Assembly (NCBI GenBank): GCA_000002445.1
Contig: CP000071.1
Span: 1,856,001 to 1,920,000 of the forward strand
DNA: 64,000 nt
From: Trypanosoma brucei
Lineage: Eukaryota
Direction: 5' to 3'
Made by a program: the position numbers and the translations under genes. The notes beneath the pieces were generated by a model that saw only the letters and a list, made by a program, of their open reading frames with translations, was not told where the DNA came from and searched no databases. This document shows, piece by piece, positions 7,511-9,253 of this stretch; the stretch's first letter is position 1, and each line of letters starts with the position of its first letter.

Positions 7511-9253
7511 ATGGAAGACAATCTTGCGGCAGAAATTGCGCGAATAGAGGCGGAGTTGGAAGCGGACCGACAGCAGCGCGAAAAACAACAACAGCAACAA
7601 CAACAACAACAGCAGCAGCAGCAGCATCAAATGAGCATGCAAAACATGATGCCCAGCTTTGGTGTATCCGCAGTTCCACAACCAATGCAACATCAACATC
7701 AACATCAGCAGTCACAACAACAGTCACCACAGCAAATGGGTGTATTGCATGGGCAAGTCAGTGGTTCAACATCACATGCGCCTGGTCAACCTCACCATTT
7801 CTCAAAGGATAGCGATGGGCGATCCATTTTTGTTGGAAATCTTCCTAAAGGTGATAATGGCGGACCCACAACCACGCCAGAGGAGTTGGCGCATTTATTT
7901 GCCGACTGTGGTCCCATCCTCAACTGTACGTTACTGCGCGATCGCACAACTGGTGAGTTGAAGGGCACGGCATATGTTGAATTTTCCACTTACACCGGAA
8001 TGGGTAAAGCTATTGATACTAAAAACAACACCATGTTCAAGGGTAGTACTTTAATTGTATGTTGACCGTGAGTTCCTGTACATAATGGGGCGCATTTTTT
8101 TGTGTGCGTTCCCTTCAACTTCTCCCCACTTTTCCCACTCCCCTCTACAAACAGGGGAACGAACTGAAGGGTGCGAGAGGAAGTGATTGAGTGAATAATA
8201 ACAACAACAATAACAACAACAACAACATTTAAGTAAATAAATAAACAAATAATAGTGAATAGTAATAGTGGTAATACTAGTAGTGATTTTAATTTCTTTT
8301 CTTTTCTTTTCTTTTTTTTTTGTTTTTGAAAAAAAAAAGAAAATCAAAATCAAAATAATAAAGAGAGTGAAAAACGTTAGCAGCATAATGACACAACCAT
8401 TGAAAAATGCTTCACAACAAAAACAAACTAAACAATGGAAGAAAAACAATAATAATAATAATAATAATAATATAATGGCGCTAACAGTACATACACCACT
8501 AAATGAAGTATTGGAAACGGGGTGGAAAGAAAACTTTTATATAATATATATATATATATATCAAATTACTGAGCAACAACAAAAATAACAATAGCAACAA
8601 AGAAATGCACTAAAAACCAAAAATAAAAAAAGAATATGGGGCTTTAGACCTCTTCTATCGTCACCCCCCATAGATGGCTTAGATTCACAAAAAAAAAAAT
8701 AAAAGAAAGAAAGAAAGAATATTGGTACTGTCACCAAAATTAACAAATATAACAATGATAGTGCAACAGTATCATCCACCAACAAAAAATATATATATAT
8801 AAGTAGCACGCGCAAAAAAAAAAAAAGAACATACACAAACATTGCGTAAATGCCCTCATTCACTTACTTGCAATCCCTCAGCCGCTCCCCTCCTCCTCTC
8901 TTCATTCTCCTCTCTCATTTTTTTTTAAATATATATATATATATACTCATGAATCAATGTGAAATCACTTCTTCTTCTTTCCACTCCTCCATTCTTTTTT
9001 TTTCTTTAATACTTCGATGGCTGAAAAGGTGACGAAAAAACGCTCATCATTCCGACCGGAACGAGCGCGTGGTGGACGTGGCGGCGGAGGGACCGGGCGG
9101 GGAGCTCAAATGCCTGATCCCTATCAAGCAATGATGGCACTTATGGGAATGGTGGCAGGCGGGGTAATGGCACGTGGTGGACGTGGCGGTGGTCGTGGCA
9201 GTCGGGGTGGAAATTCGCAGCGTGTGATGGGTGGATTTCAACCCTTTCAATAA
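7511..9253 (+). CDS. RRM RNA-binding protein with N-terminal coiled-coil/poly-Q, resembling nuclear poly(A)-binding protein (PABPN1/Pab2). Unspliced ORF is 7511..8065. Proposed spliced form is join(7511..8056,9029..9253), adding an RG/RGG tail.
   Basis: RRM motifs: RNP2 IFVGNL and RNP1 KGTAYVEF. N-terminal EAELEADRQ coiled-coil plus Q17 run. ORF stops 3 codons after beta4. GTATGT lies at 8057-8062. The RGG ORF downstream is in the same frame. See the first finding. Confidence 0.6.
7586..7630 (+). repeat. (CAA/CAG)n trinucleotide repeat encoding a poly-Q tract.
   Basis: caacaacagcaacaacaacaacaacagcagcagcagcagcatcaa lies within the RRM gene. Confidence 0.9.
8057..9028 (+). other. Candidate cis-spliced intron, 972 nt. 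5' site GTATGT; long polypyrimidine tract at 8870-9015; acceptor AG at 9027-9028.
   Basis: GTATGT begins exactly at the codon after RRM beta4. The first AG after the polyY tract restores the frame into the RG-rich coding sequence. The ATG at 9017 lies upstream of that AG. Confidence 0.4.
9029..9253 (+). CDS. RG/RGG-rich tail, proposed exon 2 of the RRM gene. The track lists it as stand-alone ORF 9017..9253.
   Basis: Translation VTKKRSSFRPERARGGRGGGGTGRG...RGGRGGGRGSRGG is in the same frame (frame 2) as 7511..8065. It resembles the RG-rich C-terminus that follows the RRM in PABPN1-type proteins. Confidence 0.4.
   Translation: MTKKRSSFRPERARGGRGGGGTGRGAQMPDPYQAMMALMGMVAGGVMARGGRGGGRGSRGGNSQRVMGGFQPFQ

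What the first reader, a model, noticed from the sequence alone, without database searches (positions are those of the whole stretch)
7511..9253. Candidate cis-spliced intron joining an RRM exon to an RG/RGG-tail exon (PABPN1-like gene)
The RRM ORF ends at TGA 8063-8065, only 3 codons after beta-strand 4 (GSTLI-VC-stop). A hexamer GTATGT, the canonical U1-type 5' splice site, occupies 8057-8062 at exactly that point. Some 970 nt downstream there is a 145-nt polypyrimidine tract (8870-9015). The first AG after it (9027-9028) is followed by sequence in the same reading frame as the RRM ORF (both frame 2). It encodes VTKKRSSFRPERARGGRGGGGTGRG...RGGRGGGRGSRGG. Joining 8056 to 9029 gives ...GSTLI|VTKKRSSFRPERARGG..., which parallels the PABPN1/Pab2 layout: RRM beta4 ...IKVIPKRTNRPG followed by an RG-rich tail. 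The stand-alone ATG at 9017 lies upstream of that first AG, so an SL-trans-spliced mRNA using this acceptor would not contain it. That argues against the RGG ORF being an independent gene. Trypanosomatids are known to have only two cis-spliced genes (poly(A) polymerase and a DEAD-box helicase), so a third would be notable. The alternative is a coincidental GTATGT with an RRM-only protein.
Basis: partly seen in the sequence, partly recalled or inferred. Interest (0 to 1): 0.85.

Follow-up and report, generated by a model that had tools for sequence, protein, structure and literature searches.

The report
Known third trypanosome intron (RBP20)

Summary
The RRM ORF 7511-8065 ends in GTATGT+TGA. 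An AG-free, pyrimidine-rich zone precedes AG 9027-28. An in-frame RG-rich ORF follows.

In six other trypanosomatids the syntenic gene has GTATG at the same codon boundary. A conserved 'VT(K/H)KRS...RGG' exon starts directly after an AG. Intron lengths are 587-1560 nt, with length mod 3 of 0, 1 or 2. Exon 2 is therefore out of genomic frame in three species, and only GT..AG splicing restores the frame. Several species have no ATG for exon 2. Intron-less homologues encode the same protein contiguously.

It is not new. Kostygov et al. 2024 (PMC11613528) reported this phase-0 intron in RBP20/Tb927.8.6440 as the third kinetoplastid cis-intron, with split reads and long reads. A 2025 paper (PMC12592628) confirmed it by RT-PCR. 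That paper showed DRBD3 balances cis-splicing against SL trans-splicing at the same AG.

Two points remain modestly open:
- The full-length protein is most similar to PABPN1/Pab2, which a 2021 review says trypanosomes lack.
- A conserved GTGAGT(T), complementary to the U1 5' end, lies 6-13 nt downstream of the cleavage site.

The parts
7465..7501 (+). Polypyrimidine run followed by the first AGs (7496-97, 7500-01). This is the presumed spliced-leader acceptor region for exon 1.
   Evidence: Sequence only. The role is inferred from the general trypanosome rule of a polypyrimidine tract followed by the first AG. It was not mapped here.
7511..8056 (+). Exon 1 coding part (182 codons). It encodes an N-terminal helix-like segment, a Q-rich region and the RRM (aa 106-181, nt 7826-8053).
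   Evidence: ORF. Pfam RRM_1 E=1.1e-16. 96% identical to the T. b. gambiense 'RNA-binding protein, putative' P0001. In the DNA comparison, 530 of 531 aligned bases are identical.
8057..8062 (+). 5' splice site GTATGT. Exon positions -4 = A and -2 = T.
   Evidence: GTATG lies at the same codon boundary in all 7 species examined and in T. b. gambiense. It matches the published kinetoplastid 5' splice-site consensus of GTATG with A at -4 and T at -2.
8068..8074 (+). GTGAGTT, a perfect complement of U1 snRNA nucleotides 1-7 (AACUCAC), at intron positions +12 to +18.
   Evidence: The U1 consensus AACUCACCUGCA is from PMC11613528. The best U1 duplex falls on this element in 6 of 7 species. It is conserved with variable spacing from GTATG: first base at intron +12 in T. 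brucei, T. cruzi and T. rangeli, +13 in T. melophagium, +14 in T. b. gambiense, +7 in Leishmania and Leptomonas. There is no clean copy in Angomonas deanei. The functional role is inferred.
8057..9028 (+). Cis-spliceosomal intron: 972 nt, phase 0, GT..AG, 31% G+C, 25 stop codons in the exon-1 frame.
   Evidence: Apart from the first ~20 nt, intron sequence is not conserved between Trypanosoma species (37-56% identity in a global alignment), while the exons are conserved. No Rfam family was found inside it.
8882..9026 (+). AG-free zone of 145 nt containing two pyrimidine blocks (8874-8927 and 8969-9015, 89% pyrimidine each). This is the polypyrimidine / branch region of the 3' splice site.
   Evidence: AG-free zones of 64-254 nt precede the 3' splice site in all 7 species. 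The branch point is not identifiable because kinetoplastids have no consensus for it.
9027..9028 (+). 3' splice-site AG. It also serves as a spliced-leader acceptor for the minor SL-exon2 isoform.
   Evidence: In every species exon 2 homology begins at the base after an AG. SL-exon2 reads are published.
9029..9253 (+). Exon 2 coding part (74 codons plus TAA). It encodes VTKKRSSFRPERA, RGG block 1, the DPYQAMMALMGM motif, RGG block 2 and a C-terminal GGFQPFQ.
   Evidence: tblastn finds it in all six orthologous loci, with the alignment starting at residue 1. It is collinear with the contiguous homologues P0007, P0012, P0024 and P0037.

Best explanation
The region is the two-exon gene RBP20 (Tb927.8.6440) of a Trypanosoma brucei-group genome.

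Gene structure:
- A 972-nt phase-0 GT-AG intron (8057-9028) is removed by the cis-spliceosome.
- Splicing joins exon 1 (N-terminal helix, Q-rich region, RRM) to exon 2 (two RG/RGG blocks around a conserved DPYQ..MGM motif, with a C-terminal P-F/Y).
- The product is a 256-aa nuclear RNA-binding protein of PABPN1/Pab2-like architecture.

Mechanism at the 5' end (inferred): U1 snRNP engages the 5' end of the intron. The invariant GUAUG marks the cleavage site. A conserved GUGAGU(U) a few nucleotides downstream supplies the best complementarity to the U1 5' end.

Mechanism at the 3' end (published): the pyrimidine-rich, AG-free zone and AG 9027-28 form a 3' splice site that is also usable by the spliced-leader trans-splicing machinery. 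Cis- and trans-splicing therefore compete there. DRBD3/PTB1 favours cis-splicing.

Shown here: gene structure, junction, conservation and homology.
Published: splicing in vivo, both isoforms and DRBD3 dependence.
Inferred: the U1 pairing register, an NLS-like role for exon 2, and poly(A)-related function.
For: Observation and homologues:
- The coordinates and frames were verified.
- Annotated orthologues stop at ...IIVC or read on into intron sequence.
- Four unannotated homologues (P0007, P0012, P0024, P0037) encode RRM + VTKKRS.FR..R.RGGRGG...DPYQ...RGG contiguously.

Seven-species comparison:
- GTATG sits at the same phase-0 boundary in all seven.
- Exon 2 starts immediately after an AG in all seven.
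- Intron lengths are 972, 688, 879, 852, 587, 1560 and 1499 nt, with length mod 3 of 0, 1, 0, 0, 2, 0 and 2. In T. cruzi, A. deanei and Leishmania exon 2 is in a different genomic frame, yet GT..AG joining restores one ORF.
- In T. cruzi, T. rangeli and Leishmania a stop codon lies directly upstream of exon 2, with no ATG in between.
- Synteny is conserved: SDR gene, then a 105/106-aa ORF, then the RRM gene.

Intron properties:
- AG-free zones of 64-254 nt lie upstream of the 3' splice site in all species.
- The exons are conserved and the intron is not.

Published evidence:
- PMC11613528 names Tb927.8.6440/RBP20 as the third intron-containing gene. It reports phase 0, GT/AG borders and split reads. 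In T. brucei long reads, 11/12 and 10/12 are SL-exon1-exon2 and 1/12 and 2/12 are SL-exon2.
- PMC12592628 confirms splicing by RT-PCR and shows DRBD3 dependence and SL-exon2 reads.

Identity of the window: it is 96.8% identical over 8.6 kb to T. b. gambiense chromosome record FN554971.1.
Against: - In vivo splicing rests on the two papers.
- The exact window protein is not in the protein collection. Assignment to Tb927.8.6440 therefore rests on near-identity to the T. b. gambiense orthologue, on synteny, and on the published description of a single-copy gene with this architecture.
- A minor SL-exon2 transcript does exist, so exon 2 is not used exclusively by cis-splicing.
Confidence: 0.97

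Rival explanations
1. There are two independent genes: an RRM-only protein ending ...LIVC*, and a separate 78-aa RGG protein translated from ATG 9017. The GTATGT would be coincidental.
For: Both are open reading frames with ATG starts in this genome. Public annotations give RRM-only models (P0001-P0006). GTATGT is common in the window, with 26 copies on the + strand. An SL-exon2 RNA exists.
Against: - ATG 9017 lies upstream of the acceptor AG, so SL-exon2 RNA lacks it.
- The ATG is not conserved. A stop codon directly precedes exon 2 in T. cruzi, T. rangeli and Leishmania.
- Exon 2 conservation begins exactly at the AG.
- Contiguous homologues fuse the two parts.
- Homology to PABPN1-family proteins runs across the junction.
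- Junction reads and RT-PCR are published.
Confidence: 0.02
2. Intron retention, or polyadenylation inside the intron, yields a physiologically relevant RRM-only isoform (184 aa, lacking the RG tail) alongside the full-length protein. The intron would then act as a switch between two protein forms.
For: - A stop codon follows the 5' splice site immediately (GTATGT-TGA) in all Trypanosoma species examined and in Angomonas. An unspliced mRNA would therefore give a clean RRM-only protein.
- Kostygov et al. raise this possibility and note intron-retaining reads in some species.
Against: - No exon-1-only mature isoform was found among T. brucei long reads, though coverage was low.
- In Leishmaniinae, read-through adds 38-44 non-conserved residues.
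- The TGA may be conserved only because it is part of the extended 5' splice-site sequence.
Confidence: 0.15
3. The main function of the locus is a non-coding RNA carried in the intron, or the SL-exon2 'lncRNA'. Splicing would be secondary.
For: A ncRNA-like signal was reported in the L. donovani RBP20 intron. SL-exon2 was previously annotated as lncRNA KS17gene_2001a.
Against: - There is no Rfam match in the T. brucei intron.
- The intron sequence is unconserved among Trypanosoma species beyond its first ~20 nt.
- Exon 2 is conserved at the protein level (44-70% identity by tblastn).
Confidence: 0.05

Closest known systems
RBP20 (Tb927.8.6440) intron, the third kinetoplastid cis-spliceosomal intron (Kostygov et al. 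2024, BMC Biol 22:281; PMC11613528)
   Same: It is the same gene. The architecture matches (Q-rich region, RRM, two G/R-rich regions). So do the phase-0 intron between the RRM exon and the RG exon, the GT/AG borders, the GTATG 5' motif with A at -4 and T at -2, and the absence of a recognisable motif at the 3' end.
   Different: Nothing substantive. The T. brucei intron here is 972 nt, against a published median of about 1300 nt across kinetoplastids. The published coordinates are in supplements that could not be read.
The PAP1 (Tb927.3.3160) and DBP2B (Tb927.8.1510) introns of trypanosomatids
   Same: All use U1-dependent GT-AG cis-splicing with a GTATG 5' site. All encode nuclear RNA-metabolism proteins. 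All show competition with SL trans-splicing at the exon 2 acceptor, and DRBD3 dependence. As in DBP2B, the intron separates a folded domain from a low-complexity tail.
   Different: The intron phases differ: 0 for RBP20, 1 for DBP2B and 2 for PAP1. The median lengths differ: about 1300, 3350 and 440 nt. These two sequences are not in the window and were not examined here.
PABPN1 / Pab2 / ePABP2 family (nuclear single-RRM poly(A)-binding proteins)
   Same: - Single RRM followed by a basic K-R-S/T motif (VTKKRS here, V(I/V/L)PKRTN in PABPN1-family proteins), then an RG/RGG tail ending in P-Y/F.
- Profile-profile match to fungal Pab2 at 99.6% probability, E=1e-23. The match runs from the RRM across the exon junction into the first RGG block.
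- The four best PDB matches to the kinetoplastid profile are all poly(A)-binding proteins: 2jwn (ePABP2), 2m70 (deposited as 'Poly(A)-binding protein 1'), and 3ucg and 3b4d (PABPN1).
- Nuclear localisation has been reported.
   Different: - RNP1 reads KGTAYVEF rather than KG(F/Y)AYIEF. The position-3 aromatic is replaced by T in all kinetoplastids examined except A. deanei, which has N. From memory, that aromatic contributes to poly(A) binding in PABPN1.
- There is a Q-rich insert between the N-terminal helix and the RRM.
- A kinetoplastid-specific DPYQ..MGM motif lies between the RG blocks.
- The N-terminal coiled-coil similarity was not picked up by hhalign.
- Poly(A) binding and PAP stimulation are untested.

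Membership tests
Kinetoplastid cis-spliceosomal (U1/U2-type GT-AG) introns | GT..AG borders with the conserved GTATG 5' motif (A at -4, T at -2) | tested here: met
   aatt|GTATGT at 8057 and AG at 9027-28. The same holds in 7 species plus T. b. gambiense. The consensus is from PMC11613528.
Kinetoplastid cis-spliceosomal (U1/U2-type GT-AG) introns | Removal restores one conserved ORF, and the position and phase are conserved across species | tested here: met
   Phase 0 at the same codon in all 7 species. Intron length mod 3 varies (0, 1, 2), but the joined ORF is always intact. The product is collinear with intron-less homologues.
Kinetoplastid cis-spliceosomal (U1/U2-type GT-AG) introns | Polypyrimidine tract and AG-exclusion zone upstream of the 3' splice site | tested here: met
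   The AG-free zone is 145 nt here and 64-254 nt in the other species. The last 150 nt are 67-79% pyrimidine.
Kinetoplastid cis-spliceosomal (U1/U2-type GT-AG) introns | Complementarity of the intron 5' end to the U1 snRNA 5' end | tested here: inconclusive
   GUGAGUU at +12 to +18 is a perfect 7-nt complement of U1 nucleotides 1-7. Duplex energy is -8.5 kcal/mol against -5.2 +/- 1.9 for shuffles (fraction reaching the observed value 0.056). Five other species give fractions of 0.01-0.05, and A. deanei is weak. The pairing register is not established, and the paper reports competing models.
Kinetoplastid cis-spliceosomal (U1/U2-type GT-AG) introns | Exon-exon junction present in mature, SL-carrying mRNA | not testable with these tools
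   No RNA-seq data were accessible. The evidence is published: split reads and SL-containing long reads and RT-PCR.
RBP20 orthologous group (Tb927.8.6440) | Single-copy gene with Q-rich region + RRM + two G/R-rich regions, in conserved synteny | tested here: met
   The architecture is shown. The order SDR / 105-106-aa ORF / RRM gene is conserved in all loci. The window is 96.8% identical at the DNA level to the T. b. gambiense chromosome record. The exact accession could not be confirmed because the sequence is not in the collection.
PABPN1/Pab2 family | Single RRM most similar to PABPN1-type RRMs | tested here: met
   The nearest non-kinetoplastid hits are fungal 'polyadenylate-binding protein 2'. 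hhalign gives 99.6% probability. The top 4 PDB hits are 2jwn (ePABP2), 2m70 ('Poly(A)-binding protein 1'), and 3ucg and 3b4d (PABPN1), at 59-67 bits. The best other hit, a multi-RRM chain, scores 55 bits or less.
PABPN1/Pab2 family | C-terminal RG-rich domain directly following a K-R-T/S motif after beta-4, ending in a PY-type motif | tested here: met
   VTKKRSSFRPERARGGRGG aligns with VVPKRTNLPGMTRGGRGG. The C-termini are ...GFQPFQ...GFQPYQ and ...GYQPF, against ...PY in the fungal proteins. NLS function is inferred.
PABPN1/Pab2 family | N-terminal coiled-coil/helical segment that stimulates poly(A) polymerase | tested here: inconclusive
   A conserved N-terminal DNLAAEIARIEAELEAD segment exists. 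hhalign did not align it to the fungal EITAMKRRVAEMEAEAAKL segment.
PABPN1/Pab2 family | Canonical RNP1 aromatic at position 3 (KG[FY]AY) | tested here: not met
   RNP1 is KGTAY in nine of the ten kinetoplastid sequences aligned. A. deanei has TGNAY.
PABPN1/Pab2 family | Specific poly(A) binding and control of poly(A) tail length | not testable with these tools
   No binding data were found. A 2021 review lists no single-RRM nuclear PABP for T. brucei.

The most novel reading that the evidence does not exclude
[quoted passage not shown] It would have been overlooked because public gene models stop at, or read into, the unrecognised intron and so lack the RG/PY-like tail. On this reading, the cis- versus trans-splicing choice at AG 9027-28 (set by DRBD3) would control the supply of a nuclear poly(A)-binding factor. 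Together with the intron-containing PAP1, it would form a splicing-gated circuit for nuclear polyadenylation.

A secondary point concerns 5' splice-site recognition. It may use a U1-complementary GUGAGU element displaced 6-13 nt downstream of the GUAUG cleavage site, with tolerated spacing changes.
Probability: 0.35. Interest if true: 0.55.

Novelty: already known. Interest (0 to 1): 0.3.

Why it matters
Trypanosomatids process almost every mRNA by spliced-leader trans-splicing. Their cis-introns can be counted on one hand, and each one probes how the two splicing modes coexist and compete.

This locus is one of only three such introns, and all three lie in RNA-metabolism genes. The discovery itself was published in December 2024 and verified experimentally in 2025.

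What could still matter:
- The full-length protein looks like PABPN1/Pab2, a factor that reviews say trypanosomes lack.
- Many database gene models for this gene remain truncated, or contain translated intron sequence.

Tried and rejected
- Exact-sequence look-up of the 184-aa and 78-aa ORFs: neither is in the collection. The accession could not be confirmed that way.
- Supplementary tables of PMC11613528, wanted for T. brucei intron coordinates: not held.
- Rfam scans for an intronic ncRNA, over the whole window at gathering score and over 7300-9700 at E<=1. Nothing was found in the intron. Only far-sub-threshold miRNA-like hits appeared, in low-complexity sequence.
- A search for conserved internal intron blocks among four Trypanosoma species: only the first ~12-20 nt are conserved.
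- Other GTATG...GTGAGT pairs in the window, as possible further introns. Position 283 lies inside an ORF that simply continues. Position 50680 lies on the + strand while the ORF overlapping it (49878..50807) is on the - strand. Both were dismissed as chance.
- A check of whether the contiguous homologue contigs (L009-L011) are spliced mRNAs. No spliced leader was recognised by eye at the 5' ends printed. The contigs look genomic, with a T-rich tract upstream and (TA)n at both ends. They are treated as intron-less genes of unidentified kinetoplastid-like organisms, not as cDNA evidence.
- U1 iCLIP paper PMC4041458: no mention of this gene.
- Splicing at the downstream GTGAGT instead of GTATG was rejected. 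In Trypanosoma it would retain the TGA stop. The intron-less homologues read ...L(I/V)VTKKRS with no extra residues.
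Full report
**1. The observation**

- The + strand ORF 7511..8065 encodes 184 aa ending ...FKGSTLIVC*.
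- Pfam RRM_1 matches aa 106-181, profile positions 1-69 of 70, E=1.1e-16.
- GTATGT occupies 8057-8062 and is followed directly by TGA 8063-8065.
- ORF 9017..9253 is in the same genomic frame.
- AG 9027-28 is the first AG after the pyrimidine-rich zone, and ATG 9017 lies upstream of it.
- Joining 8056 to 9029 is a phase-0 junction. It gives a 256-aa protein reading ...GSTLI|VTKKRSSFRPERARGGRGG....

One detail needs correcting. 8870-9015 is not a continuous polypyrimidine tract.
- It is 75% pyrimidine overall.
- It contains two blocks of 89% pyrimidine (8874-8927 and 8969-9015) around a mixed segment.
- What is exactly 145 nt long is the AG-free zone, 8882-9026.

The hexamer alone carries no weight. 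GTATGT occurs 26 times on this strand of the window, against about 17.5 expected.

**2. Comparative test**

A homology search with the hypothetical spliced protein returned three kinds of relative.
- Annotated Trypanosoma orthologues all stop at ...(I/L)IVC.
- Leishmaniinae models run on past ...IVC into non-conserved sequence (VCVSTSP...).
- Four unannotated proteins (P0007, P0012, P0024, P0037) carry RRM + VTKKRS.FR..R.RGGRGG...DPYQ...MG...RGG as one continuous ORF.

I fetched the genomic loci of six orthologues: T. cruzi, T. rangeli, T. melophagium, Angomonas deanei, Leptomonas pyrrhocoris and a Leishmania (Viannia) species. I also fetched T. b. gambiense. All share the gene order short-chain dehydrogenase gene, then a 105/106-aa ORF, then the RRM gene.

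tblastn with the T. brucei exon 2 peptide finds a conserved exon 2 downstream in every locus. The alignment always starts at residue 1.

Junction analysis shows the following.
- GTATG lies at the same codon boundary (phase 0) in all seven species, with A at -4 in all seven and T at -2 in all.
- Exon 2 starts immediately after an AG in all seven.
- Intron lengths are 972, 688, 879, 852, 587, 1560 and 1499 nt, so length mod 3 is 0, 1, 0, 0, 2, 0 and 2.
- In T. cruzi, A. deanei and Leishmania, exon 2 is therefore in a different genomic frame from exon 1. Only removal of GT..AG restores a single ORF. This excludes read-through and coincidence.
- In T. cruzi, T. rangeli and Leishmania a stop codon directly precedes exon 2 and there is no ATG. 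Exon 2 cannot be a stand-alone gene translated from its conserved start.
- AG-free zones of 64-254 nt precede the 3' splice site everywhere.

Between Trypanosoma species the intron is unalignable beyond its first ~20 nt (37-56% identity in a global alignment). The RRM-coding DNA is 74-83% identical, and exon 2 is 65-70% identical at the protein level. This is the exon-intron-exon conservation pattern expected of a real intron.

**3. It is already published**

A literature search found Kostygov et al., BMC Biol 2024 (PMC11613528). [quoted passage not shown] They report:
- a Q-rich region, an RRM and two G/R-rich regions;
- a phase-0 GT/AG intron between the domain-coding exon 1 and the low-complexity exon 2;
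- split reads supporting the junction;
- in T. brucei long reads, SL-exon1-exon2 as the main isoform, with SL-exon2 as 1 of 12 reads (bloodstream form) and 2 of 12 reads (procyclic form).

They also describe the GTATG consensus with A at -4 and T at -2. The window matches this exactly.

A 2025 paper (PMC12592628) adds further evidence.
- RT-PCR gives direct evidence for RBP20 cis-splicing.
- DRBD3 depletion reduces junction reads and tagged RBP20 protein.
- DRBD3 depletion raises SL-exon2 reads 6- to 8-fold.
- The exon 2 transcript had previously been annotated as lncRNA KS17gene_2001a.

It also shows that trans-splicing at the same AG occurs as a competing minor pathway.

The window is 96.8% identical over 8.6 kb to the T. 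b. gambiense chromosome record FN554971.1. Exon 1 has 530 of 531 aligned bases identical and exon 2 has 224 of 225. The differences are mostly indels in Q-codon runs and intronic repeats. The window is therefore a T. brucei-group genome. The exact accession could not be checked.

**4. Mechanism**

Established by the sequence here plus the published data: a U1/U2-type GT-AG intron whose 3' splice site is shared with the SL trans-splicing machinery. DRBD3 tips the balance towards cis-splicing.

Inferred here: a conserved GTGAGT(T) lies 6-13 nt downstream of the GTATG.
- Its position, counted from the first intron base, is +12 in T. brucei, T. cruzi and T. rangeli, +13 in T. melophagium, +14 in T. 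b. gambiense, and +7 in Leishmania and Leptomonas.
- There is no clean copy in A. deanei.
- It is the exact complement of U1 nucleotides 1-7 (AACUCAC; the consensus is).
- The best predicted U1 duplex falls on it in six of seven species. The fraction of shuffles reaching the observed energy is 0.01-0.06 per species.
- Cleavage cannot occur there. In Trypanosoma it would retain the TGA, and the intron-less homologues show no extra residues.

The element therefore looks like a U1 docking site displaced from the cleavage site, with tolerated spacing changes. The main text of the paper does not mention GTGAGT. It does note distal complementarity in Bodo saltans and competing pairing models.

**5. 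What the protein resembles**

- The nearest non-kinetoplastid relatives are fungal 'polyadenylate-binding protein 2'.
- A profile of ten full-length kinetoplastid sequences aligns to a fungal Pab2 profile with 99.6% probability and E=1e-23. The alignment runs from the RRM across the exon junction into the first RGG block: stiIVTkKRS.Frp.R.rGGRGGrG against nlkvvpkrtnlp-gmtrggrgg.g.
- Against the PDB, the top four hits are 2jwn (ePABP2), 2m70 (deposited as 'Poly(A)-binding protein 1'), and 3ucg and 3b4d (PABPN1), ahead of all other RRM proteins.
- The C-termini end in P-F/Y (GFQPFQ, GFQPYQ), as fungal Pab2 ends in PY.
- Nuclear localisation is reported.

Differences:
- RNP1 is KGTAY rather than KG(F/Y)AY.
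- There is a Q-rich insert.
- A kinetoplastid-specific DPYQ..MGM motif is present.
- The N-terminal helix was not aligned by hhalign.

A 2021 review states that trypanosomatids have no obvious single-RRM nuclear PABP. A 2012 survey listed a different gene. Neither RBP20 paper mentions PABPN1. This is the one angle that may still be new. Function is untested.

**6. Verdict**

Novelty is 'already known'. The finding validates the scan, but it adds no discovery beyond two modest leads: PABPN1-like identity and a displaced U1-complementary element. It also serves as a reminder that public gene models for this gene are still wrong.

Noticed in passing
window 8068-8074; L012 4545-4551; L001, L005, L006, L004 and L007 just downstream of their 5' splice sites: A conserved GTGAGT(T), the exact complement of the U1 snRNA 5' end (AACUCAC), lies 6-13 nt downstream of the GTATG cleavage site. 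Its spacing varies between species, and differs by 2 nt even between this window and T. b. gambiense. It is not mentioned in the main text of the 2024 paper.
   Followed up: partly
Proteins P0009, P0010, P0013, P0016, P0019, P0022, P0030 (Leishmaniinae); P0001-P0006, P0029: Public gene models of RBP20 orthologues are still wrong. Trypanosoma and Angomonas models stop at ...IVC. Leishmaniinae models append 38-44 residues (measured in the two loci examined) or more of translated intron (VCVSTSP...). All lack the RG-rich exon 2.
   Followed up: yes
window 7511-8056 versus L012 4001-4531: Exon 1 differs from T. b. gambiense almost only by the length of its glutamine-codon runs (184 versus 179 aa for the exon-1 ORF). 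This is CAA/CAG repeat-length polymorphism inside the coding region.
   Followed up: partly
window 6445-6762 (+): A 105-aa ORF with no Pfam match lies immediately upstream of RBP20. A 105-115-aa gene is called at the same syntenic position in all eight trypanosomatid loci fetched. It is a conserved small protein of unknown function.
   Followed up: no
window 35988-36674: A cluster of five tRNA genes in mixed orientation: Ile(AAU)+, Leu(UAA)-, Gln(CUG)-, Gln(CUG)+, Ile(AAU)+. The Ile pair and the Gln pair have identical scores, which suggests a local duplication or inversion.
   Followed up: no
window ~38900-42760: Long ORFs are on the + strand up to about 38.9 kb and on the - strand from about 42.8 kb onward. 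This indicates a convergent strand-switch region a few kb downstream of the tRNA cluster.
   Followed up: no
window 9372-9564: Downstream of exon 2, a purine-rich segment is followed by a pyrimidine-rich segment. Together they give weak hairpin-like (miRNA-precursor) Rfam hits on both strands, with best E=0.005 at 24 bits against a gathering score of 64. This is probably a low-complexity artefact.
   Followed up: partly
window 10734-11099 (+): A chagasin-family cysteine-peptidase inhibitor gene (Pfam Inhibitor_I42, E=1.4e-21) lies downstream of RBP20. Angomonas deanei has two tandem copies at the syntenic site (L008 5644-6009 and 6321-6638).
   Followed up: no
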